The notes beneath the pieces are model-generated. The model was not told where the DNA came from. It searched no databases and was given only the letters and a program-made list of their open reading frames with translations. Made by a program: the position numbers and the translations under genes. Positions 8,794-21,643 of a stretch of DNA of 34,791 nt are shown in pieces (the first letter of the stretch is position 1; the number at the start of each line of letters is the position of its first letter). Source of the DNA: a virus; IMG/VR virus record IMGVR_UViG_3300045988_072765; one strand, given 5' to 3'.

Positions 8794-9060
8794 ATGGATT
8801 TCGGAATTGTTTCTGTGGCGGCTATCACCGTCATCTGCTATCTGGTGGGCATGGTAGTCAAGGCCATCCCCCACATGGAGGACAAGTACATCCCCATCGC
8901 CTGCGGCCTGTGCGGGGCGGTGCTGGGCCCTGTGGGCCTGTATCTGGGACTGGACGGTTTCCCGGCCACGGACTACATGACCGCCGTGGCGGTAGGTATT
9001 GTCAGCGGTCTGGCGGCCACGGGCATCAACCAGGTGGGCAAGCAGCTGAGCAAGGAGTGA
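8794..9060 (+). CDS. Holin (Hol44-like)
   Basis: 88 aa with several hydrophobic segments and a charged C-terminus (GINQVGKQLSKE). Lies immediately upstream of the endolysin. Confidence 0.8.
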   Translation: MDFGIVSVAAITVICYLVGMVVKAIPHMEDKYIPIACGLCGAVLGPVGLYLGLDGFPATDYMTAVAVGIVSGLAATGINQVGKQLSKE

Positions 9061-9064
9061 TTGT

Positions 9065-10567
9065 ATGCTCAAAATCGCCATTGATGCGGGGCACTACAAG
9101 GGGACGCCGGGGCGGCGGTGTTTAGCCGCCCTGGATCCCAGCGAGACCCGGGAGTGGGAGCTTAACCGCCGGGTGGCAGACAAGCTGGAGGCGCTGCTGG
9201 CGGGGTACGACTGCCAGGTCCTCCGGGTAGACGACAGGACCGGGGACAAGCTGATCGACCTGGGGGACCGGGTGGCGGCGGCCAACGGCTGGCCCGCCGA
9301 CGTATATCTTAGCATCCACCACAACGCAGGTATCAAGGGCGGCAGCGGGGGCGGCTGCGTGGTATACACGGCCCCCGGCTGCCAGGTCAAAAGTAAGGCC
9401 CTCCAGCGGGCCGTTTACGGGGCCGTGGTGAGCCGGACGGGGCTGGTGGGCAACCGGGCCACCCCCATGGCGGAAAGCGGCCTGTACGTGCTCCGGCGGA
9501 CGAAAATGCCCGCTATTCTCATTGAGTGCGGGTTTATGGACAGCTCCACAGACGTGCCGGTGATCCTGGGGCCGTACTTCGCGGGGCAGGTGGCGGACGG
9601 GCTGCTGGCGGCTCTGGTGGAGGTGTTTAATTTGAGCGAGCGCAAGGAGGTGCGGGAGCGGATGAGCTATACCAAGAGGGGCGGGGCCCACATTGTGGAG
9701 GTGCCGGTCAGGGACTTCGCCGTCCGGCTGGTGGACAAGTCCAAAAAGACGGCGTACAGCGGCAACTACTGCAACGCCGGATTTTTTGGCAACTACAACG
9801 AAGGAAAAGACAAGTTTACCCTCCCCGTGGGCCACACGGTGGCCACCATGGCGACGGACAACAAGTGGGTCAACCACTACTGCGCCCAGCGGGGCAAGGT
9901 GTCCGGCGGCAAGCTGGTCTACGCGGAGCCGGGGCGGACGGAGACCACCCTGTTTGTCCGGGGCGGCAAGGCGGACATGGGGGAGCTGAGCGCACCCCCG
10001 GAGGGCTGCGCCTATGCCATTGCGGGCGTGCCCGTACTTCGTCAGGGCAAGGCGGTGAGCTGGGCCACGGCAAAGGCTCAGGGCTGGGAGGCGTCCTCTC
10101 TCTATGCTACATGGCACATCTTTGCCGGGTACGGCCAGGACCGGAGCAAGATCACGGTGGTGGCGCTCAGGACCACGACCGGCAACCTGATCTCCAGCGG
10201 CGAGGGGGCCAAAAAGCTGGCGGCCCTGGGGCTGCGGGAGGCCATCAAGCTGGACGGGGGCGGCAGCACCATCCTGCGGGTGAGTGGAAAGACCCCCGTA
10301 TGCACGGCGGGCAACCGGCGGATCTGCACGGTGCTGACTTTCGGGGGCAACCCCTACGCCGCCCCTACCAAGACACTGGCCAAGGGCAACCGTGGCGAGG
10401 GCGTGCGGTGGCTCCAGTGGGAACTCAATGACCGGGGCTTTGCCTGCGCCGTGGACGGCAGCTTTGGCCCTGGGACCAAGGAGGCCCTGATGGCCTATCA
10501 AGTGAGCGCGGGGCTGGTGCCGGACGGCAGCTGCGGGCCGGCGACCAGAAAGGCGCTGATGGGGTAA
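9065..10567 (+). CDS. Endolysin: N-acetylmuramoyl-L-alanine amidase (Amidase_3), phosphodiester-glycosidase-like (NAGPA/DUF2233-like) domain and PG_binding_1
   Basis: Three motif sets: N-terminal KIAIDAGH...LSIHHNAG; middle NAGFFGN...KLDGGGST; C-terminal GVRWLQWELN..G....DGSFGPGT..AL..YQ...GL..DG..GP.T..AL. Confidence 0.85.
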   Translation: MLKIAIDAGHYKGTPGRRCLAALDPSETREWELNRRVADKLEALLAGYDCQVLRVDDRTGDKLIDLGDRVAAANGWPADVYLSIHHNAGIKGGSGGGCVVYTAPGCQVKSKALQRAVYGAVVSRTGLVGNRATPMAESGLYVLRRTKMPAILIECGFMDSSTDVPVILGPYFAGQVADGLLAALVEVFNLSERKEVRERMSYTKRGGAHIVEVPVRDFAVRLVDKSKKTAYSGNYCNAGFFGNYNEGKDKFTLPVGHTVATMATDNKWVNHYCAQRGKVSGGKLVYAEPGRTETTLFVRGGKADMGELSAPPEGCAYAIAGVPVLRQGKAVSWATAKAQGWEASSLYATWHIFAGYGQDRSKITVVALRTTTGNLISSGEGAKKLAALGLREAIKLDGGGSTILRVSGKTPVCTAGNRRICTVLTFGGNPYAAPTKTLAKGNRGEGVRWLQWELNDRGFACAVDGSFGPGTKEALMAYQVSAGLVPDGSCGPATRKALMG

Positions 10568-10570
10568 AAA

Positions 10571-10605
10571 GAGAAGGCACACCGCTATGGTGTGTCCTCT
10601 TTTTT
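10571..10605. terminator. Bidirectional intrinsic terminator shared by the endolysin (+) and the convergent 169-aa gene (-)
   Basis: Imperfect hairpin GAGAAGGCACACC-gcta-TGGTGTGTCCTCT followed by TTTTTT on plus and by TCTCTTTTT on minus. The minus-gene stop codon lies in the loop. Confidence 0.65.
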
Positions 10606-11094
10606 GTTCTCCCAAGCCAACAGGCCCCACCCCTTATATGTGGATACAGGGGACGGCTTGCCATTGGCGCGGATCCGCTTGCCCTCGATCGACCGCTTGA
10701 TCTGGCGGAATCCGGAGGCTATCCGGTTCGCGTTTTCGTCCGTGGGCTCCATGCCAAAGTAGTCCTTTGCGTGCTGTCTGGCCCAGTCCAGCAGATTGAC
10801 CACGGTCATAATATTGCCATCTGGATCCACCAAATGCCATACCTTGGCCTCGCGGTTCTGAGGGCCGCGCTGACCCGCCGGGAGTTTCAGCGCCGCCGTT
10901 GTCCCGTTTTGGAGATTGCCGGTCTGCTCCGCTGCTTTGCGGGCGGACGCTTTGGCGGCCTGCGACCATTGGTTGTGCTTGCCCTGGTGGCTCTGAGATC
11001 TGCGCACATCGGAGCAGGCCTTGGAGCAGGTGATTTTGTCGTTGCTGGGGGCCGTGTTAAACTCTGCCCCACATACCACACAGCGCCGGATCAT
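10585..11094 (-). CDS. Zinc-ribbon protein (CVVCG...CSKAC) with an uncharacterised C-terminal domain; third gene of the accessory operon
   Basis: Start moved to the internal ATG (MIRRCVVCG...), which overlaps the upstream stop as ATGA at 11091-11094. The longer track ORF would overlap the HTH gene. Confidence 0.7.
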   Translation of the reverse strand: MIRRCVVCGAEFNTAPSNDKITCSKACSDVRRSQSHQGKHNQWSQAAKASARKAAEQTGNLQNGTTAALKLPAGQRGPQNREAKVWHLVDPDGNIMTVVNLLDWARQHAKDYFGMEPTDENANRIASGFRQIKRSIEGKRIRANGKPSPVSTYKGWGLLAWENKKEDTP

Positions 11095-11372
11095 ATCAGG
11101 TCCCGCGCATCCACGCCCAGGGCGTCGGCGATGGACAGGAGGTTTTTGGCCGTCAGGTTTCCGGCCTCTGCCTCGCCCAGCTCTACACGCTGGATCTGCC
11201 GGATATAGACGCCGGACTTTTCGGCGAGCTGAGCCTGGGTCATGCCCGCCATGCGGCGGGACCACTCCAGTTTTGTGATCGGACGGTTACGGCAGTCTCT
11301 GCCGTAGTTGACCAGCGAGCATAGGGTGCAGTCTCCGTCCTCCCGCTGACAATCTGCGTATTTCTTGCGCAT
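11091..11372 (-). CDS. XRE-family HTH regulator with an N-terminal 4-Cys cluster (Aca-like position)
   Basis: 93 aa. MTQAQLAEKSGVYIRQIQRVELGE is a classic XRE helix-turn-helix. GGGAGG RBS 6 nt before the ATG. Confidence 0.85.
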   Translation of the reverse strand: MRKKYADCQREDGDCTLCSLVNYGRDCRNRPITKLEWSRRMAGMTQAQLAEKSGVYIRQIQRVELGEAEAGNLTAKNLLSIADALGVDARDLI

Positions 11373-11384
11373 TGTGGGCCTCCC

Positions 11385-11711
11385 TTAGCAGATAATCTTG
11401 ACGACTTCGGCATCCCGGATGATGATCTCGCCGTCGTCCTCTCCATACTCCACATCATTGCCGCAGATGATAGCGACGTGATCGCCAAAGTAATTGTTGA
11501 CACCAAGACGGTCCAGCGTGCAAGCGCAGATCCCATCAAGTTCTACGCCGGTATCATCGCCGTCGTCCCAAACGTGGGAGTTGTGATCGATAGAGCCAAG
11601 CTCAAAGGGGACTTCCTGCACCCGGACGCCAATATAGTCATAATCATATCTCAGATCCATATCTTCTGCGGTCTGCTTAATGTTCTTAATCATTTCGGCG
11701 TTCATCAACAT
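11385..11711 (-). CDS. Small, strongly acidic protein (108 aa; 25 D/E against 7 K/R by my count); first gene of the accessory operon
   Basis: Start set at ATG 11711 (MLMNAEM...), preceded by AAGGAGG with an 8-nt spacer. Consensus promoter lies upstream. Confidence 0.75.
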   Translation of the reverse strand: MLMNAEMIKNIKQTAEDMDLRYDYDYIGVRVQEVPFELGSIDHNSHVWDDGDDTGVELDGICACTLDRLGVNNYFGDHVAIICGNDVEYGEDDGEIIIRDAEVVKIIC

Positions 11712-11756
11712 TTTCGTGTCCTCCTTGGGTCGTGCCCCTCTCTTGTTTACATGCCT

Positions 11757-11785
11757 ATTATACGCTAATAATAGCGTAAAGTCAA
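11757..11785 (-). promoter_or_regulatory. Near-consensus sigma70 promoter of the accessory operon, with an inverted repeat in the spacer
   Basis: On the minus strand: TTGACT (rc of 11780-11785), 17-nt spacer, TATAAT (rc of 11757-11762). The spacer contains ACGCTA-n4-TAGCGT. Confidence 0.75.
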
Positions 11786-11852
11786 GATGAAATTGCAAAA
11801 TAAATGAATAGTTTTGTGGGGCGGGAGTATCGGCATGAATTGTCCTTGATTT

Positions 11853-11888
11853 ATCCGCAATTTCATCCGTAATTTCATCCGTAATTTC
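11853..11888. repeat. Three tandem 12-bp units (ATCCGCAATTTC, ATCCGTAATTTC x2); candidate integrase arm-type sites (P' arm)
   Basis: Read directly. The same unit occurs twice at 12086-12109 on the other side of the tRNA-like core. Confidence 0.6.
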
Positions 11889-11970
11889 TGCGCAAAATTC
11901 GCAAAAGCTGGGCAAGAAAAGAGAAGAAGAAACAGGATAAGCGAACGACCGAAAGCCTTGGGAGAGTAAG

Positions 11971-12005
11971 AAAAACCCAGCAGTTATTGAAACTGCTGGG
12001 TTTTA
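11971..12005. terminator. Intrinsic terminator hairpin directly downstream (minus strand) of the tRNA 3'-end mimic
   Basis: ACCCAGCAG-ttattgaaa-CTGCTGGGT, flanked by A5 on one side and T4 on the other. On the minus strand it is followed by TTTTT. Confidence 0.8.
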
Positions 12006-12010
12006 CATTT

Positions 12011-12039
12011 TGGCGCAGAAGGAGGGATTCGAACCCTCC
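12011..12039 (-). other. attP core candidate: 3' portion of a tRNA gene (T-arm, acceptor 3' strand and CCA), not a complete tRNA
   Basis: The minus strand reads GGAGGGTTCGAATCCCTCCTTCTGCGCCA: T-stem GAGGG/CCCTC, T-loop TTCGAAT, acceptor CTTCTGC, discriminator G, CCA. The matching 5' acceptor GCAGAAG is absent upstream. Confidence 0.75.
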
Positions 12040-12076
12040 AAAAAAGTCTCTAAACCCCTTGTGGGAGTAGGGGCAT

Positions 12077-13120
12077 TTATTTTTTATCCGTAATTTCATC
12101 CGTAATTTTTCCCGCAAAAAAACTATTGATGGCGGTATCTGCTGCGGACTTTTGACTCTCAAACACATAGGAGTAAGTCTGGCGGTAGGTGGACTCGCAG
12201 GCCCAGCCGCCGCGCTCCATGGCGTGCCGGTCATCCACGCCCAGGGTTTTCATCACGGCGGCGTTTGTGTGACGCAGTCCGTGGACTGTGGTATCGGTTA
12301 TCCCGGCCCGCTGACAGGCCCGGTGGACGTGCTTGCGGACGGTCTCCGGATTGACGCCAAAAAGCCGCCCGTCTTTCCGGCGGGGCAGGGCCCGGATCTT
12401 GTCCATGATATAGTCGGGACAATCCACTGTGCGCTGACTGTATGTATTTTTTGCCACCTCTTTGAGTACCCAGTGGTTATCCTCGTCCGGGACCACGGTG
12501 CGGCGGACATGGATCAAGCTGCGGTCCAGGTCCACGCAGTCCCAGCAAAGGCCCAGGATCTCCGAGCGGCGCATCCCCAGCCAGACGGCCAGGAGAATTG
12601 GCACCTCGCAGCTGTCCCCCTCTATGGCCTGGATCAGCTTGCCGATGTCCTCCGGCTGGAGGTACTGCTTGACCGGCTTGACCACCTGGGGCAATCGGAC
12701 GCCAAAAACATCGATTCCGCACTCCTTGAGCACGGGGCGGATCAGGCCGTAGGCATTGGCCACGGTCTTGGCAGAGACCAGCTGGGCCTCCTGATTGACG
12801 GCCCGCTGAACGTGGGCTTTGGTGATCTGGTGGACGTCGCACTGCATAAGCTGGGCAAAGCGGTGCTTTTGGGTGGTGCGGTAGCCCCGTATAGTGGCGG
12901 GAGACAGGACAGCGGCCTTGCTGGTGATATACTCCTTGATGGCCTGGTTTAGCGTCATGCGCTCCGGCGCGTGCTCTATCTTGGCCCCGGCCTTGACGGC
13001 TGCGGCCTGCTGCTCCGCTTCTTTTTTGGTGGGGGCGGTGATGGAGATCCTCTCCCCTGCCACCATCATGTATATGTTCCAGCTCCCGGAGGGGAGCTTT
13101 TTTGCCTTGGGTATTTTCAT
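12077..13120 (-). CDS. int: Tyrosine recombinase / phage integrase
   Basis: 347 aa with the catalytic signature LGMRRSE ... HGLRHT ... GGW ... YSY. AGGAGGA RBS. Adjacent to the tRNA-like attP. Confidence 0.93.
   Translation of the reverse strand: MKIPKAKKLPSGSWNIYMMVAGERISITAPTKKEAEQQAAAVKAGAKIEHAPERMTLNQAIKEYITSKAAVLSPATIRGYRTTQKHRFAQLMQCDVHQITKAHVQRAVNQEAQLVSAKTVANAYGLIRPVLKECGIDVFGVRLPQVVKPVKQYLQPEDIGKLIQAIEGDSCEVPILLAVWLGMRRSEILGLCWDCVDLDRSLIHVRRTVVPDEDNHWVLKEVAKNTYSQRTVDCPDYIMDKIRALPRRKDGRLFGVNPETVRKHVHRACQRAGITDTTVHGLRHTNAAVMKTLGVDDRHAMERGGWACESTYRQTYSYVFESQKSAADTAINSFFAGKITDEITDKK
12086..12109. repeat. Two tandem 12-bp units (ATCCGTAATTTC, ATCCGTAATTTT) inside the integrase 3' end; candidate arm-type sites (P arm)
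   Basis: Same unit as 11853-11888. Here it encodes the integrase C-terminus ...KITDEITDKK. Confidence 0.6.
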
Positions 13121-13151: not shown

Positions 13152-13589
13152 TTAGCCGATACACTTAGAGCAAGGGGTCAGGCCCATGCCGATGGCAGTA
13201 TCCAGAGGGACGGGCCAATAAGTGCCGCCGTTACAATGGGGGTCATTGTGATATTTGGAGCCGGTACGGGTGATATAGGTCTGCTTTGCGGCGGCGGGGG
13301 CCTCCGGAGCCGTCAGGCTGACAGTCTGGGTGGCGCCGTCCCACTGGACCGTATAGCCCACAAGTTTGGCCACATTGGCCACGGGCAAATAAGTGGTGCC
13401 GTTGATAATAAAAGGCTCTGTGGGCGCTCCGGTGGAGTCGGTGATCTGGACAAGCTCCCCGTCTACCTTGAGCGAGATCCCATTAAAATACAAGGTCTCT
13501 GTGCGGGCGGATCCGGTGGCCAGAGCCGCGCCGGTGAGGGACGCGGCGAGGGCACATCCGGCAAAAATCGCTTTCCAATTCTTTTTCAT
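13152..13589 (-). CDS. Secreted protein or lipoprotein: copper-amine-oxidase-N-like stalk domain plus a C-terminal YH/Cys motif domain
   Basis: Start set at MKKNWKAIFAGCALAA (signal peptide with a possible lipobox FAGC) with GGAGAG RBS. INGTTYLPVANVAKLVGYTVQWDGATQTVSL is typical of the Cu_amine_oxidN1-type domain. The C-terminus reads GSKYHNDPHC...PCSKC. Confidence 0.75.
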   Translation of the reverse strand: MKKNWKAIFAGCALAASLTGAALATGSARTETLYFNGISLKVDGELVQITDSTGAPTEPFIINGTTYLPVANVAKLVGYTVQWDGATQTVSLTAPEAPAAAKQTYITRTGSKYHNDPHCNGGTYWPVPLDTAIGMGLTPCSKCIG

Positions 13590-13634
13590 AACGCTATCTC
13601 TCCATTCTGTCTCAAAAATTGACACTATCTGTAC

Positions 13635-13693: not shown

Positions 13694-13819
13694 ATGGACA
13701 CAGAGACAGAGTTGATCCTTATTCTTTCCCGCCTGACCCCAGCCCAGCTTGACCTTTTTCGATCTGCCGCGCGACAGATAGCAAAGCAGATGCAAGGGCA
13801 GGGTTCTGACGACAAATAG
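13694..13819 (+). CDS. Possible 41-aa ORF (MDTETELILILSRLTPAQLDLFRSAARQIAKQMQGQGSDDK) antisense to the repressor 3' end
   Basis: AAAGGAGG RBS 8 nt upstream of the ATG. Has its own promoter and terminator. It overlaps 101 nt of the repressor ORF, so it may instead be a noncoding antisense RNA. Confidence 0.35.
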   Translation: MDTETELILILSRLTPAQLDLFRSAARQIAKQMQGQGSDDK

Positions 13820-14096
13820 ACAACAGCTGTTGGATGTCCTCCGGTAAATCATTTTCGAGCGCTTCGCCGTTTTCGGCGGGGCGCTCTTTTTTTATGTCTC
13901 CCGGTCCGGCCCCAGTCAAAAGATATTCGACAGAGACAGCGAAATGATCTGCAATCTTTTGCAACGTTTTAGGCCGTGGTGTCCCGCCCTGCCGCCATTG
14001 GGTGACAGACGAGGACGGCAGCCCCAACTCTTTTGCAACGCCATTGGGCGTTTTCCCCACTGCCTTGCAGAGGCCCGAGTATTGGTCAAAAAACAT
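13719..14096 (-). CDS. cI-like repressor (XRE-family HTH)
   Basis: 125 aa with an N-terminal HTH (GKTPNGVAKELGLPSSSVTQWRQGG). Divergent from the Cro-like gene. Same strand as the lipoprotein and integrase genes. Confidence 0.8.
   Translation of the reverse strand: MFFDQYSGLCKAVGKTPNGVAKELGLPSSSVTQWRQGGTPRPKTLQKIADHFAVSVEYLLTGAGPGDIKKERPAENGEALENDLPEDIQQLLSICRQNPALASALLSVARQIEKGQAGLGSGGKE
13857..13893 (+). terminator. Strong plus-strand intrinsic terminator embedded in the repressor coding sequence
   Basis: GAGCGC-TT-CGCCG-TTTT-CGGCG-GG-GCGCTC followed by TTTTTTT. In the minus orientation no U-run follows. Confidence 0.75.
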
Positions 14097-18335: not shown

Positions 18336-18863
18336 ATGATGTCAAATAATTTGTATTTGTGCGACCCCGTGAAGAATAGGTTTTGCCCAAAGACACACTG
18401 CCACAACCCGTGCTATCACACGCACGACCCTGAGTGTGCCTGGGAGCCCACACTCAGGGTCCGTCTGGACGAGGGGGCCTATCTGCCCCAGCGGGCCCAC
18501 GGCACCGACGGGGGGTTGGATATTCGCACGCCGGTGGACGCCTACGTCCGGGCCGGGGGCAGTACGGTGATCGACACCGGGGTGCATATCCAGCTGCCGC
18601 CCTGTACGGTGTGTATGATCAAAAGCAAAAGCGGCCTCAACATCAAGGACGGGATCGTGTCCGAGGGCGTCATTGATGAGGGCTACACCGGGAGCATTAC
18701 AGTCAAGCTGTACAACCACGGCACCGAGGCCAAGCAGTTTAGCAGGGGCGACAAGATCACTCAGCTGGTTGTGCTGCCGGTGCTGTATGTCAAAGTGGAG
18801 CAGGTGGAGGAGATCCAGGGCGGGCCCAGAGGAGATAATGGGTATGGGAGTACGGGACGATGA
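18336..18863 (+). CDS. dut: dUTP diphosphatase (trimeric dUTPase) with an N-terminal Cys/His-rich extension of about 38 aa
   Basis: Start set at ATGATG after GAGGAGG. Motifs GGLDIR, GVIDEGYTGSI, GDKITQLV and RGDNGYGSTG. Confidence 0.9.
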   Translation: MMSNNLYLCDPVKNRFCPKTHCHNPCYHTHDPECAWEPTLRVRLDEGAYLPQRAHGTDGGLDIRTPVDAYVRAGGSTVIDTGVHIQLPPCTVCMIKSKSGLNIKDGIVSEGVIDEGYTGSITVKLYNHGTEAKQFSRGDKITQLVVLPVLYVKVEQVEEIQGGPRGDNGYGSTGR

Positions 18864-19517
18864 AGGTTCTTGAACTTTTTGCAGGGACACGCTCTATTGG
18901 TAAAGCGTTCGCGGCTCGGGGACACCAGGTGTACTCCGTGGAGTGGGACAAGCGATTTGACCACATCGACCTATACGCCGATATCCTTAAGTTGACTGCG
19001 CAAGACGTCCTGCGAGAGTTTGGGCGGCCTGATGTGATCTGGGCAAGCCCGGACTGTGCAACTTTTAGCATTGCAGCCATCAGCCACCACCGACGGAAAA
19101 ACCCAGAAACCGGAAACTTGGACCCAGTAAGCGAGTACGCCAAATTCTGCGATGCGGTGGACCAGCACGTTTTGCGGTTGATTCTGGCTTTGTCCCCGAC
19201 CTACTGGTTCATCGAGAACCCGCAGCAGGATGCGCAAAATGACGTGGATGGAGGGACTGCCCCGGTACACCGTCACATACTGTCAGTACGGGGACACCCG
19301 AATGAAGCCCACGGACATTTGGACAAATCATCCGCTGCCCAGATTTAAACCGCCTTGTCATAACGGCGACCCGTGCCATATCTCTGCCCCGCGCGGGGCC
19401 AAAACGGGGACGCAAGGGCTGGCTGGCAGTATGGAGAGGTCAATTATCCCTGCTGCGCTGTGTGACCATATCGTAGATATTTGTGAGGAGACGGAGTGGA
19501 ATGTCACAGTCTGTTAA
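18860..19517 (+). pseudogene. Short phage-type DNA (cytosine-5) methyltransferase interrupted by a +1 frame change just after the ENP motif (about 19223-19230)
   Basis: The first frame gives LELFAGTRS (motif I), SPDCATFS (PC motif) and WFIENP. The protein-like sequence then continues in the next frame as MRKMTWMEGLPRYTVTYCQYGDTRMKPTDIW..., while the first frame runs on as QQDAQNDVDGGTAPVHRH... Confidence 0.7.
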
Positions 19518-20731: not shown

Positions 20732-21643
20732 ATGGATTGTAACGTACTGCAAGGCGACGCGCTGGAGCTGCTGCGGACGCTGCCGCCAGAAAGCGTACAT
20801 ACCTGCGTGACCTCCCCGCCCTACTATAATTTGCGGGATTACGGAGTGGAGGGGCAGATCGGGAACGAGGCCAGCGTGGAAGAATATCTGCAGAAGCTGG
20901 TCACAGTTTTTCGTGAGGTTAGACGGGTACTGCGGCCAGATGGAACTCTGTGGGTAAACGTGGGCGATAGTTATGCTGCCAATTCGGGGAACCAGCCGCC
21001 GACGAACACCCGAAATTCCTGCGGACACACCGCAAAGCGCGTACCGTATGGGTACAAGAAAAAAGACATGATCGGCATACCTTGGCAGTTGGCCTTTGCC
21101 CTCCGCGCAGATGGTTGGTATTTGCGGCAAGACATCATTTGGCAGAAACCGAACTGTATGCCGGAGAGCGTAAATGACCGATGCACGAAGTCACATGAGT
21201 ACATCTTCCTGCTGTCAAAGTCAGAGCGCTATTATTTCGACGCGGCGGCGATCAGCGAGCCGGTCACATCGGCTAAAGGAAACGCAAGGACGTTTCGCGG
21301 CGGCGGAGCCTATACCGGCGGTCGATCTCACGACAACAGCGCACAGGTGGAGCGCGAGAGCCACGGTAATAGCGAGAACAAGACGGGGCGCAGGAACAAG
21401 CGGAGCGTCTGGAGCGTAAGCACAAACGGATTTCGCGGCGCACACTTCGCCGTGTTCCCGGAAAAGCTGATCGAGCCATGTATTTTAGCAGGCTGCCCAG
21501 AGGGCGGTGTTGTACTTGACCCATTTGCGGGCAGCGGCACAACAGGCGTGGTGTCCAAACGCATGGGGCGCGGTTTTGTGGGATGTGAAATCAATCCCTC
21601 GTATGTAGAAATGGCCGCCGGAAGAATAGGAGAGGTTGAATGA
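20732..21643 (+). CDS. DNA N4/N6 methyltransferase (N6_N4_Mtase family, beta class)
   Basis: TSPPYYN catalytic motif near the N-terminus. VLDPFAGSGTTGVV SAM-binding motif near the C-terminus. Confidence 0.9.
   Translation: MDCNVLQGDALELLRTLPPESVHTCVTSPPYYNLRDYGVEGQIGNEASVEEYLQKLVTVFREVRRVLRPDGTLWVNVGDSYAANSGNQPPTNTRNSCGHTAKRVPYGYKKKDMIGIPWQLAFALRADGWYLRQDIIWQKPNCMPESVNDRCTKSHEYIFLLSKSERYYFDAAAISEPVTSAKGNARTFRGGGAYTGGRSHDNSAQVERESHGNSENKTGRRNKRSVWSVSTNGFRGAHFAVFPEKLIEPCILAGCPEGGVVLDPFAGSGTTGVVSKRMGRGFVGCEINPSYVEMAAGRIGEVE

What the first reader, a model, noticed from the sequence alone, without database searches (positions are those of the whole stretch)
10585..11790. Three-gene reverse-strand operon beside attP with anti-defence (acr-aca-like) architecture: consensus promoter with an operator, a small very acidic protein, a Cys4-XRE HTH and a zinc-ribbon protein
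Seen in the sequence:
- A near-perfect promoter (TTGACT-17-TATAAT) whose spacer holds the inverted repeat ACGCTA-n4-TAGCGT.
- It drives a tightly coupled operon. The first stop is followed immediately by the next RBS, and the second and third genes overlap as ATGA.
- Gene 1 is 108 aa with 25 D/E against 7 K/R by my count, and I recognise no motif in it.
- Gene 2 is an XRE HTH preceded by a 4-Cys cluster.
- Gene 3 has an N-terminal CxxC...CxxxC ribbon plus an unrecognised 110-aa domain.

Established knowledge: anti-CRISPR and other anti-defence loci typically consist of a strong promoter with inverted repeats, one or more small acidic or DNA-mimic proteins, and a downstream HTH (Aca) autorepressor. 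The region between the lysis genes and attP is a classic accessory slot.

Inference: this may be an undescribed anti-defence or lysogenic-conversion module. A toxin-antitoxin-like or regulatory role for genes 2 and 3 cannot be excluded.
Basis: partly seen in the sequence, partly recalled or inferred. Interest (0 to 1): 0.72.

Follow-up and report, generated by a model that had tools for sequence, protein, structure and literature searches.

The report
Self-repressed phage accessory operon, swappable cargo
A gut-Clostridia temperate phage carries, between its lysis genes and attP, a strongly promoted, probably self-repressed three-gene operon built like an anti-CRISPR (acr-aca) locus, and its regulator marks a slot where related phages swap about sixteen unrelated small proteins, so it is a good handle for finding anti-defence genes, though none has been tested.

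Summary

Comparison with about 180 related loci supports the acr-aca-like reading.
- Gene 2, a Cys4 + Cro/C1-type HTH, is a constant anchor. It travels with the same -35/palindrome/-10 promoter and a roughly 45-nt leader.
- Only 27 of 79 close gene-2 loci have gene 1 upstream. The other 52 lack gene 1; those with a detectable operator carry unrelated small cargo, about sixteen families in all, many with pI near 4.1.
- Gene 1 has no Pfam, NCBIfam, PADLOC or PDB match. Its roughly 100-aa acidic beta-rich domain has 937 representative relatives and conserved R-S-W-D-T-Y-D-E positions. It is also embedded in giant polyvalent proteins (next to PBECR nucleases, ADP-ribosyltransferases, InPase) and fused to a portal protein. 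Those contexts point to a host-directed effector.
- Gene 3 is optional: it is absent from a 96%-identical phage. Its slot is otherwise filled by multi-zinc-ribbon or AP2 proteins homologous to the aca-like marker of Clostridioides difficile acr loci.

Verdict: a new candidate Aca-like regulator with candidate anti-defence cargo. The architecture is well supported. The function is inferred and untested.

The parts
11757..11785 (-). Sigma-70-type promoter TTGACT-17-TATAAT (-35 at 11785-11780, -10 at 11762-11757)
   Evidence: It matches 11 of 12 consensus positions. It is conserved in front of different cargo genes in related loci.
11761..11778 (.). Predicted operator: 18-bp palindrome TACGCTA-n4-TAGCGTA, occupying the spacer and overlapping the -10
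   Evidence: It is unique in the window (0.02 expected). The ACGC-N8-GCGT dyad is conserved in 115 of 159 related loci, with symmetric variants. It changes when the HTH family changes (L001) and is absent where there is no HTH gene (L034-L065).
11712..11756 (-). Conserved 5' leader of about 45 nt, with SD AGGAGG at 11725-11720
   Evidence: The leader stays constant before unrelated cargo ORFs. Its small GGGG-loop-CCCC hairpin is not thermodynamically significant (z=-0.44).
11385..11711 (-). Gene 1: 108-aa very acidic protein (pI 4.05) that occupies the variable cargo slot. It belongs to an uncharacterised domain family also found in polyvalent proteins.
   Evidence: The AF2 model has pLDDT 89.7. 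Foldseek found no PDB match.
11091..11372 (-). Gene 2: 93-aa Cys4 module plus Cro/C1-type HTH. Predicted autorepressor (Aca-like anchor).
   Evidence: HTH_3 E=1.1e-8. Best PDB profile hit is 434 Cro. 223 viral contigs encode relatives. The upstream cargo varies.
10585..11094 (-). Gene 3: 169-aa basic protein (pI 9.8) with an N-terminal zinc ribbon and a conserved C-terminal domain. Optional downstream gene, probably nucleic-acid binding.
   Evidence: It is absent from a 95.8%-identical phage. In related loci the slot holds zinc-ribbon or AP2 proteins instead.
10576..10596 (.). Bidirectional intrinsic terminator between gene 3 and the convergent endolysin gene
11850..12117 (.). attP region (context). 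Arm-type 12-nt repeats lie at 11850-11896 and 12083-12117, a terminator hairpin at 11972-12004, and a tRNA/tmRNA 3'-end-like core at 12011-12040.
12077..13120 (-). Tyrosine integrase (context)
   Evidence: Phage_integrase E=4.4e-15; phrog_1 E=3.6e-50.
8794..10567 (+). Lysis cassette (context): holin 8794-9060 and Amidase_3 endolysin 9065-10567, convergent with the operon

Best explanation
This is an autoregulated accessory operon of acr-aca type in a temperate phage of gut Clostridia. The steps below are marked as shown or inferred.

1. A near-consensus sigma-70 promoter fires as soon as the DNA enters a cell, and probably also from the prophage end (inferred).
2. Gene 2 is a dimeric Cro/C1-type HTH with an N-terminal Cys4, probably metal-binding, module. 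It binds the 16-18-bp dyad in the promoter spacer and -10 region. This throttles its own operon after an initial burst (inferred from sequence and comparison; binding not shown).
3. Promoter, operator, leader and gene 2 form a constant expression cassette. The ORFs between leader and gene 2 are exchangeable cargo (shown by comparison of loci).
4. Gene 1 is the commonest cargo. It is a roughly 100-aa acidic beta-rich domain, also built into injected polyvalent proteins and a portal fusion (shown).
5. Gene 1 therefore most likely acts on a host target early in infection, as an anti-defence or host-takeover effector. It would work through a conserved polar pocket (R30, S45, W48, D50, T54, Y74, D92, E95) (inferred).
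6. Gene 3 is an optional zinc-ribbon protein that probably binds nucleic acid. It is interchangeable with AP2 or multi-zinc-ribbon proteins. It may be a second regulator or a further effector (inferred).
For: Anchor behaviour of gene 2:
- 223 viral contigs encode gene 2 relatives, against 82 for gene 1.
- Among the 79 closest gene-2 loci, only 27 have gene 1 upstream.
- The same operator, ACGCTAATATTAGCGT or ACGCCAATATTGGCGT, lies 270-860 nt upstream of gene 2. The interval holds unrelated small ORFs.
- There are 82 non-redundant operon variants and about 16 upstream cargo families. Six of them have pI 4.1-4.2.
- Nucleotide homology to the window is confined to the promoter-leader segment and to gene 2(+3), with the cargo replaced.

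Link between operator and regulator:
- 115 of 159 loci keep the -35/dyad/-10 arrangement, with symmetric double changes.
- A locus with a different HTH family has a different dyad (L001, ATACCAAATATGGTAT).
- Gene 1 loci with no HTH gene lack a conserved dyad.
- The dyad is unique in the window. A separate CI-like repressor sits at 13719-14096.

Gene 1 as a conflict-type domain:
- 937 representative relatives were found.
- The domain is embedded in proteins of 888-3923 aa alongside PBECR2/3/5, ART-PolyVal, ADPrib_exo_Tox, InPase and an Eco57I methylase domain. It is also fused C-terminally to a portal protein.
- Such proteins are argued to be packaged and injected (PMC5512222).
- The whole family is acidic, with median net charge -14 to -17.

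Locus type:
- Consensus promoters with an inverted repeat inside the core promoter define acr-aca operons (PMC9410906).
- AP2-domain proteins mark acr loci next to the lysis module in clostridial phages (PMC10732046).
- The AP2 protein in the third slot of related loci is homologous to that marker, phiCDHM13 gp27 (E=9e-11).
- It also shares its N-terminal zinc-knuckle module with gene-3-type proteins (E=9e-10).
- The post-lysis position recurs in other phages and prophages.
Against: - No experiment bears on this locus, and the case rests on association.
- None of the three proteins, nor any sister cargo tested, resembles a known Acr or anti-defence protein by sequence or fold. The gene 3 match to AcrVA3 is weak (E=0.057, TM 0.24 on the query).
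- Gene 2 is not detectably a member of a solved Aca family.
- Hotspots at prophage ends also carry defence and lysogenic-conversion genes.
- HTH autoregulators with core-promoter dyads also control R-M systems, TA systems and other morons.
- The frequent gene 2 plus zinc-ribbon pairing could mean that this pair, rather than the cargo, is the functional core.
Confidence: 0.6

Rival explanations
1. The operon is a prophage-expressed defence, superinfection-exclusion or lysogenic-conversion cassette. It is transcribed constitutively from the prophage end, and its cargo protects or modifies the lysogen rather than helping the phage to infect.
For: - It sits at the prophage end next to attP, after the lysis genes, behind a strong housekeeping-type promoter.
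- Rapid cargo turnover is also typical of defence hotspots.
- PADLOC matches gene 2 to HTH components of defence systems (RmrA, CapH, controller proteins), though only through the generic HTH.
Against: - The cargo proteins are 64-240 aa with no enzymatic or defence-family domain.
- The gene 1 domain occurs in injected polyvalent proteins and a portal fusion, which is an offensive context.
- The promoter and operator logic matches burst-then-repress acr operons.
Confidence: 0.15
2. The operon is a toxin-antitoxin or abortive-infection module. Gene 2 is an HTH antitoxin and autorepressor, MqsA- or HigA-like with a zinc module. It neutralises gene 1 or gene 3 as the toxin.
For: - There is an XRE-type HTH with a palindromic operator, tight translational coupling and an ATGA overlap of genes 2 and 3.
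- There are weak profile similarities to HipB, HigA and Y4mF antitoxins.
- Gene 2 is usually followed by a basic zinc-ribbon protein.
Against: - The pairing is not obligate. Gene 1 occurs without any HTH partner (L034-L065, Blautia phage Montmirail, polyvalent proteins), and 52 of 79 gene-2 loci lack gene 1.
- Gene 3 is cleanly absent from a 95.8%-identical phage and is replaced by AP2 or other proteins elsewhere.
- No toxin fold or family was detected.
- Gene 1 is very acidic, which is atypical for RelE/ParE-like toxins.
Confidence: 0.08
3. The operon is a phage developmental regulatory module. Genes 2 and 3 are transcription factors for phage or host genes, and gene 1 modulates them as an anti-repressor or co-factor, without any defence target.
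For: - Two of the three proteins look like DNA binders. Gene 2 has an HTH, and gene 3 has a zinc ribbon plus a C-terminal domain with a weak fold match to the I-HmuI homing endonuclease structure (E=0.096).
- Some gene 3 homologues are fused to an HTH (P0189, P0204).
Against: - The operator occurs only once in the genome, so gene 2 appears to control only its own operon.
- The phage has a separate CI-like repressor and early region.
- A core regulator would not be swapped for 16 unrelated proteins, nor deleted between near-identical phages.
Confidence: 0.1

Closest known systems
acr-aca operons (anti-CRISPR genes with an Aca HTH autorepressor; Aca1-Aca13, AcrIIA1)
   Same: - Small gene(s) lie upstream of a small HTH gene in one operon.
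- The promoter has near-consensus -35 and -10 elements with a dyad inside the core promoter.
- The HTH gene is conserved while the upstream genes vary, and many of the cargo proteins are small and acidic.
- The locus is carried by a temperate phage next to the lysis module, as in Listeria and C. difficile phages.
   Different: - No cargo is a known Acr, and no inhibition has been shown.
- Gene 2 carries an extra N-terminal Cys4 module and did not retrieve solved Aca proteins.
- A zinc-ribbon or AP2 gene usually follows the regulator.
AP2-domain 'aca-like' marker proteins of clostridial acr loci (phiCDHM13 gp27; AcrIB2 study, PMC10732046)
   Same: - They occupy the same genomic slot, adjacent to the lysis genes.
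- The AP2 proteins that replace gene 3 in related loci are homologous to gp27 (E=9e-11).
- They share an N-terminal zinc-knuckle repeat with gene-3-type proteins.
   Different: Gene 3 itself has no AP2 domain. Its C-terminal domain is unassigned, with only weak fold matches to I-HmuI and AcrVA3. No homologue of AcrIB2 was looked for or seen here.
Domains of polyvalent proteins of phages and conjugative elements (Iyer, Burroughs, Anand, de Souza, Aravind 2017; PMC5512222)
   Same: The gene 1 domain is found inside such proteins, next to PBECR nucleases, ART-PolyVal, an ADP-ribosyl exotoxin domain, InPase and a methylase domain. It is also fused to a portal protein. It exists as solo genes in phages too, as that paper describes for other domains of the repertoire.
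   Different: No Pfam model, including the LPD, PBECR and ART-PolyVal models, matches it. It appears to be an undescribed member of the repertoire. Here it is a free-standing, transcriptionally regulated gene rather than a packaged domain.
DNA-mimic anti-restriction proteins (Ocr, ArdA) and acidic Acrs
   Same: Small size and strong negative charge (pI 4.05, net charge about -18).
   Different: There is no sequence or fold similarity. Conservation is concentrated in a set of polar and aromatic residues, rather than in a surface charge pattern.
Controller (C) proteins of R-M systems and HTH antitoxins (C.AhdI, HigA, HipB, MqsA)
   Same: These are Cro/C1-type HTH autoregulators that bind a dyad in their own promoter. 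Weak profile matches were found. MqsA also combines a zinc module with an HTH.
   Different: There are no R-M or toxin partners. The neighbouring genes are variable and dispensable.

Membership tests
acr-aca operon | Small HTH protein encoded in the same operon, downstream of the candidate effector gene(s) | tested here: met
   Gene 2 matches HTH_3 (E=1.1e-8). Its RBS abuts the gene 1 stop codon, and no terminator was found in the scanned region until after gene 3.
acr-aca operon | Near-consensus promoter with an inverted repeat inside the core promoter (PMC9410906) | tested here: met
   The promoter matches 11 of 12 positions. The 18-bp dyad lies in the spacer and -10, and is unique in the window. 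It is conserved in 115 of 159 related loci.
acr-aca operon | Regulator conserved while upstream genes vary (guilt-by-association pattern) | tested here: met
   27 of 79 close gene-2 loci have gene 1 upstream. About 16 unrelated cargo families sit behind the same promoter, operator and leader.
acr-aca operon | The HTH protein binds the repeat and represses the promoter | not testable with these tools
   This needs EMSA or reporter assays. Indirect support: the dyad changes with the HTH family and is absent where no HTH gene is present.
acr-aca operon | Upstream gene product inhibits CRISPR-Cas or another defence system | not testable with these tools
   There is no homology to known Acr or anti-defence proteins. 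A function assay is required.
Known Aca families (Aca1-13, AcrIIA1 HTH) | Sequence homology to a described Aca family | tested here: inconclusive
   A profile search of the PDB gives 434 Cro (1.3e-3), HipB, HigA, C.AhdI and the AcrIIA15 HTH (0.11). No Aca1 or Aca2 was retrieved. No Aca HMM library was available.
Polyvalent-protein domain repertoire | Domain recurs inside multi-domain proteins of phages or conjugative elements alongside effector domains, and as solo genes | tested here: met
   P0233 (3923 aa: PBECR5, ART-PolyVal), P0322 (PBECR3, PBECR2), P0349 (InPase, Eco57I), P0240 (ADPrib_exo_Tox), P0241 and the portal fusion P0277.
DNA-mimic anti-restriction (Ocr/ArdA) | Homology or fold similarity to Ocr or ArdA | tested here: not met
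   No Pfam hit, no PDB sequence hit, and the best Foldseek PDB match has E=1. Only the net charge agrees.
Type II toxin-antitoxin (HigBA/MqsRA-like) | Obligate toxin-antitoxin gene pair with a recognisable toxin fold | tested here: not met
   Gene 1 and gene 2 each occur without the other. Gene 3 is dispensable. No toxin family or fold was detected.
AP2-domain aca-like proteins of clostridial acr loci | AP2 DNA-binding domain | tested here: not met
   Gene 3 has no AP2 match. Proteins that occupy its slot in related loci do: AP2 E=6.4e-4, and phiCDHM13 gp27 E=9e-11. They share an N-terminal zinc-knuckle module with gene-3-type proteins.
Anti-phage defence systems (PADLOC) | Match of a component to a defence-system model other than a generic HTH | tested here: not met
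   Genes 1 and 3 have no PADLOC match. Gene 2 matches only through its HTH.

The most novel reading that the evidence does not exclude
The gene 1 domain is a new, widespread effector fold. It would bind or modify a specific host molecule through its conserved R-S-W-D-T-Y-D-E pocket, for example an immune signalling nucleotide or a defence enzyme. Phages would deploy it in two ways: injected as part of polyvalent or portal-fused proteins, and as an early, self-limited solo gene. The Cys4 module on the regulator would be a metal or redox sensor that tunes cargo expression to the state of the anaerobic host. That module is also found, 72% identical over 25 residues, in a Methanosarcina virus protein. 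The regulator would then mark a cassette-exchange system holding a dozen or more undescribed anti-defence families in gut Clostridia phages.
Probability: 0.2. Interest if true: 0.8.

Novelty: new member of a known kind. Interest (0 to 1): 0.6.

Why it matters
Anti-defence genes of phages that infect gut Clostridia (Lachnospiraceae, Oscillospiraceae) are almost unexplored, and these hosts are hard to screen.

This regulator, with its invariant promoter-operator-leader cassette, is a specific and searchable anchor. At least 223 viral contigs carry it. It already points to about 16 unannotated small-protein families, each a directly testable candidate.

Gene 1 also defines a domain that Pfam does not cover. 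It has 937 representative relatives and links solo phage genes to injected polyvalent proteins. Working out its target would explain a recurrent module of phage-host conflict.

If the operon proves not to be anti-defence, it is still a clear example of modular cargo exchange at a phage moron locus.

Tried and rejected
Searches that found nothing useful:
- Gene 1 had no hit in Pfam, NCBIfam or PADLOC, one chance-level PDB sequence match (E=0.12), and only PHROG 18666 of unknown function.
- Foldseek of the confident gene 1 model against the PDB gave nothing below E=1. The hits were scattered small beta-barrel proteins with TM about 0.2.
- Foldseek against BFVD gave one uncharacterised phage protein (1e-6) and weak DUF7666, RIIB and ankyrin hits. 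I do not interpret these.
- Gene 1 has no match in plasmids.
- PDB, Pfam and PHROG searches of sister cargo found no known anti-defence protein. Only one ParB-N-like cargo was recognisable.

Ideas considered and dropped:
- Gene 1 as a minimal R-S-E ADP-ribosyltransferase, because R30, S45 and E91-x3-E95 are conserved and ART domains are frequent neighbours. I rejected this: Foldseek gave no ART match (PDB best E=1), and 108 aa is too small for that fold.
- Gene 1 as a 2H phosphoesterase, from HxS/HxA motifs. I rejected this: His43 and His78 are not conserved across the superfamily.
- The conserved leader hairpin as a riboregulator. It is not supported (z=-0.44).

Matches too weak to use:
- The gene 3 fold matches to AcrVA3 (E=0.057), I-HmuI (0.096) and YacG.

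Checks that came back negative:
- ARAGORN finds no complete tRNA. The window therefore holds attP, not an integrated junction.
- A look-up of the exact gene 1 protein returned only phage-sized contigs with no host flanks. The host could not be identified directly.
Full report
**1. What is there**

The window is a temperate siphophage-like genome.
- A holin (8794-9060) and an Amidase_3 endolysin (9065-10567) end the late region on the + strand.
- Three genes lie convergent with them on the - strand.
- Beyond those genes comes a non-coding stretch, and then a tyrosine integrase (12077-13120, -).

The non-coding stretch has the features of attP.
- It holds five 12-nt direct repeats, three at 11850-11896 and two at 12083-12117.
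- These flank a core that looks like a tRNA or tmRNA 3' end (GGTTCGAATCC...GCGCCA, 12011-12040). Rfam gives a tmRNA 3'-end match at E=0.0096.
- No complete tRNA is present.

The phage's own CI-like repressor is elsewhere, at 13719-14096. It is followed by replication genes and DNA methylases.

**2. The observation checks out**

- The promoter TTGACT-17-TATAAT (11785..11757, -) scores 11 of 12.
- The repeat extends to TACGCTA-n4-TAGCGTA (11761-11778). It fills the spacer and overlaps the -10. It occurs once in 34.8 kb, against 0.02 expected.
- Gene 1 (11711..11385) encodes 108 aa with 25 D/E and 7 K/R, pI 4.05.
- Its stop codon is followed at once by GGGAGG and then by gene 2 (11372..11091). 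Gene 2 is 93 aa with four Cys at positions 8, 15, 18 and 27, followed by HTH_3 (E=1.1e-8).
- Gene 2 overlaps gene 3 (11094..10585, 169 aa, CxxC...CxxxC) as ATGA.
- A bidirectional terminator follows.
- Gene callers on five independent public contigs report the same three genes.

**3. Gene 2 is a conserved anchor with exchangeable upstream cargo**

Counts of loci:
- A scan of IMG/VR with a gene 1 alignment found 82 loci. A scan with a gene 2 alignment found 223.
- Gene 1 is followed directly by a gene 2 homologue in 51 of 83 gene-1 loci.
- Of the 79 best gene-2 loci (67-100% identity), only 27 have gene 1 upstream.

What fills the gap in the other loci:
- The same dyad, ACGCTAATATTAGCGT or its symmetric variant ACGCCAATATTGGCGT, sits inside a TTGAC...TATAAT promoter 270-860 nt upstream of gene 2.
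- The interval holds unrelated small ORFs.
- After de-replication there are 82 operon variants:

| Architecture | Variants |
|---|---|
| gene1-G2-gene3 | 19 |
| gene1-G2-F3 (196 aa, four zinc ribbons) | 19 |
| F5-F6-G2-gene3 | 7 |
| F10-F11-G2-F12 | 6 |
| F5-F6-G2-F3 | 4 |
| Others with F8, F9, F16, F18, F20, F29, F30, F34, F36, F37 | remainder |

- That makes about 16 upstream families. Six of them have pI 4.1-4.2.
- None matches Pfam. One is ParB-N-like by PHROGs. None matches a PDB sequence meaningfully.

Mosaic structure:
- The promoter, operator and a roughly 45-nt leader are nearly invariant in front of the different first genes.
- blastn of the window against these loci aligns only the promoter-leader (11800-11709) and gene 2(+3) (11393-10598). 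The cargo is replaced.

Link between operator and regulator:
- 115 of 159 loci keep the -35/dyad/-10 arrangement. Some contigs were fetched twice, so this count is not fully non-redundant.
- Where the HTH belongs to another family (L001-L003), the dyad is different (ATACCAAATATGGTAT).
- Where gene 1 homologues have no HTH gene downstream (L034-L065), the promoter has no conserved dyad.

This matches the published definition of acr-aca operons. Those have consensus-like promoters with an inverted repeat inside the core promoter, bound by a downstream HTH autorepressor, and variable upstream genes (PMC9410906). Binding itself is inferred, not shown.

**4. Gene 1**

Close relatives:
- About 158 close homologues exist, all unannotated.
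- There is no match in Pfam, NCBIfam or PADLOC and no meaningful PDB sequence match (one hit at E=0.12). The only hit is a PHROG of unknown function.
- The AlphaFold model from 37 sequences is confident (pLDDT 89.7). It has one N-terminal helix and eight strands.
- Foldseek finds nothing in the PDB (best E=1). In BFVD it finds one uncharacterised phage protein at 1e-6.

Wider family:
- A profile search of 1.84 billion representatives finds 937 relatives (272 at E<=1e-10).
- Most are solo proteins of 100-130 aa.
- The domain is also embedded in giant proteins:

| Protein | Length | Other domains found |
|---|---|---|
| P0233 | 3923 aa | PBECR5, ART-PolyVal |
| P0322 | 1966 aa | PBECR3, PBECR2 |
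| P0349 | 1244 aa | InPase, Eco57I methylase |
| P0240 | 888 aa | ADP-ribosyl exotoxin domain |
| P0241 | 1410 aa | none found |
| P0277 | 618 aa | phage portal domain, with the gene 1 domain C-terminal to it |

- These are the polyvalent proteins of Iyer et al. 2017. That paper argues they are packaged and injected to act on the host, with solo versions of the same domains in phages (PMC5512222).

Conserved features:
- Across 150 representatives the conserved positions are R30, G39, S45, W48, D50, G51, T54, G60, Y74, G76, G90, D92 and E95, each conserved in 81-99% of representatives.
- That pattern suggests a binding or catalytic pocket rather than a generic charge mimic.
- The family is nevertheless uniformly acidic.

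Distribution:
- Hosts of the relatives are gut Clostridia: Lachnospiraceae, Oscillibacter, Enterocloster and Blautia.
- In C. asparagiforme prophages and in Blautia phage Montmirail the gene again lies after the lysin.

**5. Gene 3**

- 96 homologues were found, none named.
- The protein is basic (pI 9.8). It has an N-terminal zinc ribbon, a poorly modelled helical linker and a confident C-terminal domain (GQRGPQNR...W.L.DP.G...NLLDWAR...YKGW).
- Fold matches are weak: AcrVA3 at E=0.057, I-HmuI at 0.096, and YacG for the ribbon.
- Some homologues are fused to an HTH or to an N-terminal zinc-knuckle repeat.
- The gene is optional. A phage 95.8% identical across the region lacks exactly this gene.
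- In other loci the slot after gene 2 holds multi-zinc-ribbon proteins or zinc-knuckle + AP2 proteins.
- One such AP2 protein is homologous to phiCDHM13 gp27 (E=9e-11) and to Listeria phage A006 gp22. gp27 is the AP2 protein used as an aca-like marker to find AcrIB2 in C. difficile phages. There the acr locus also adjoins the lysis module (PMC10732046).
- The zinc-knuckle module is shared between AP2-type and gene-3-type proteins (E=9e-10).

**6. Mechanism proposed**

Shown by sequence and comparison:
- There is a constant promoter/operator/leader + HTH cassette with exchangeable cargo.
- Gene 1 belongs to a conflict-associated domain family.
- Gene 3 is dispensable and interchangeable.

Inferred:
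- Gene 2 dimers bind the dyad and shut the promoter down after an initial burst.
- Gene 1 acts on a host target, most likely a defence component.
- The Cys4 module binds a metal and serves dimerisation or sensing.
- Gene 3 binds nucleic acid as a co-regulator or second effector.

**7. Rivals**

- A defence or lysogenic-conversion cassette remains possible, because prophage-end hotspots carry both kinds of cargo. The small domain-less cargo and the polyvalent and portal contexts argue for an offensive role.
- A TA module is unlikely, because no gene pair is obligate.
- A core developmental regulator is unlikely, given the cargo turnover and the single operator in the genome.

**8. Novelty and verdict**

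- The kind of system, an autoregulated acr-aca-like accessory operon, is known.
- The regulator family (Cys4-HTH), the gene 1 domain and most of the cargo are undescribed in the libraries available here.
- I file it as a new member of a known kind.
- Confidence is high for the architecture (about 0.85) and moderate for an anti-defence function (about 0.5-0.6).

Noticed in passing
window 11289-11351 (Cys4 module of gene 2); L179 1471-1692 (Methanosarcina virus MetMV, MK170447 5557-5778); L093 1751-1948; L180 2692-3186: The Cys4 motif (DGDCxxCSLVNYGRDCHN) is a portable module. It is 72% identical over 25 aa in a 73-aa archaeal-virus protein that has no HTH. A degenerate Cys-rich N-terminus in L093 (it lacks the CxxC pair) is fused to an RHH-like tail. 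Flavonifractor phage Cormatin has the same HTH (79% identical) behind a different 110-aa N-terminal domain.
   Followed up: partly
window 11850-11896 and 12083-12117; core 12011-12040: Five copies of a 12-nt repeat (TTCATCCGTAAT) flank a tRNA/tmRNA 3'-end-like attP core. Two copies lie inside the 3' end of the integrase ORF, where they encode ...ITDEITDKK. They are probably arm-type integrase sites.
   Followed up: partly
window 10626-11084 versus L100 3289: Gene 3 is a clean presence/absence polymorphism between phages that are 90-96% identical on both sides. It behaves as a small mobile cassette.
   Followed up: partly
L135 2262-2344 and 4260-4340: One related phage carries two copies of the promoter/operator/leader cassette about 2 kb apart. 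This suggests tandem cargo operons under the same regulator.
   Followed up: no
L103, L107, L117, L120, L135, L162 (first cargo ORF after the leader): Several cargo ORFs from at least three unrelated families (F5, F18, F30) begin with MKY directly after the invariant leader. The recombination junction may lie at or just inside the start codon.
   Followed up: no
P0277 (618 aa): portal domain 65-420, gene 1 domain 501-610: The gene 1 domain is fused to the C-terminus of a phage portal protein. This implies packaging into the capsid in that lineage.
   Followed up: partly
L034-L065 (e.g. L036 4992-5333): A clade of gene 1 homologues (about 45% identity) in roughly 50-kb phage contigs stands alone behind a TTGAC-17-GATACAAT promoter. 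It has no HTH gene and no conserved dyad, and the downstream genes are on the opposite strand.
   Followed up: partly
window 11712-11756: The conserved leader contains a GGGG-loop-CCCC hairpin immediately 5' of the SD, with apparent compensatory variants (GAGG/CCTC) in other loci. Its folding energy is not better than that of shuffled sequence (z=-0.44).
   Followed up: partly
window 13152-13625 (-): A 157-aa protein with a hydrophobic N-terminal stretch (possibly a signal peptide; not tested) and a Cu_amine_oxidN1 domain (E=7e-18) sits between the CI-like repressor and the integrase. It is a possible lysogenic-conversion gene.
   Followed up: no
window 18860-19348 and 20732-21643 (+): The early region encodes a C5-cytosine methylase-like fragment and an N6/N4 DNA methylase. 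These are a second, conventional route of restriction evasion in the same phage.
   Followed up: no
L001 6360-6575; L102 2792-2989: A 65-71-aa protein is the sole cargo upstream of gene 2 in some loci. In others it is a second cargo between gene 1 and a different HTH. Cargo modules shuffle between regulator families.
   Followed up: partly
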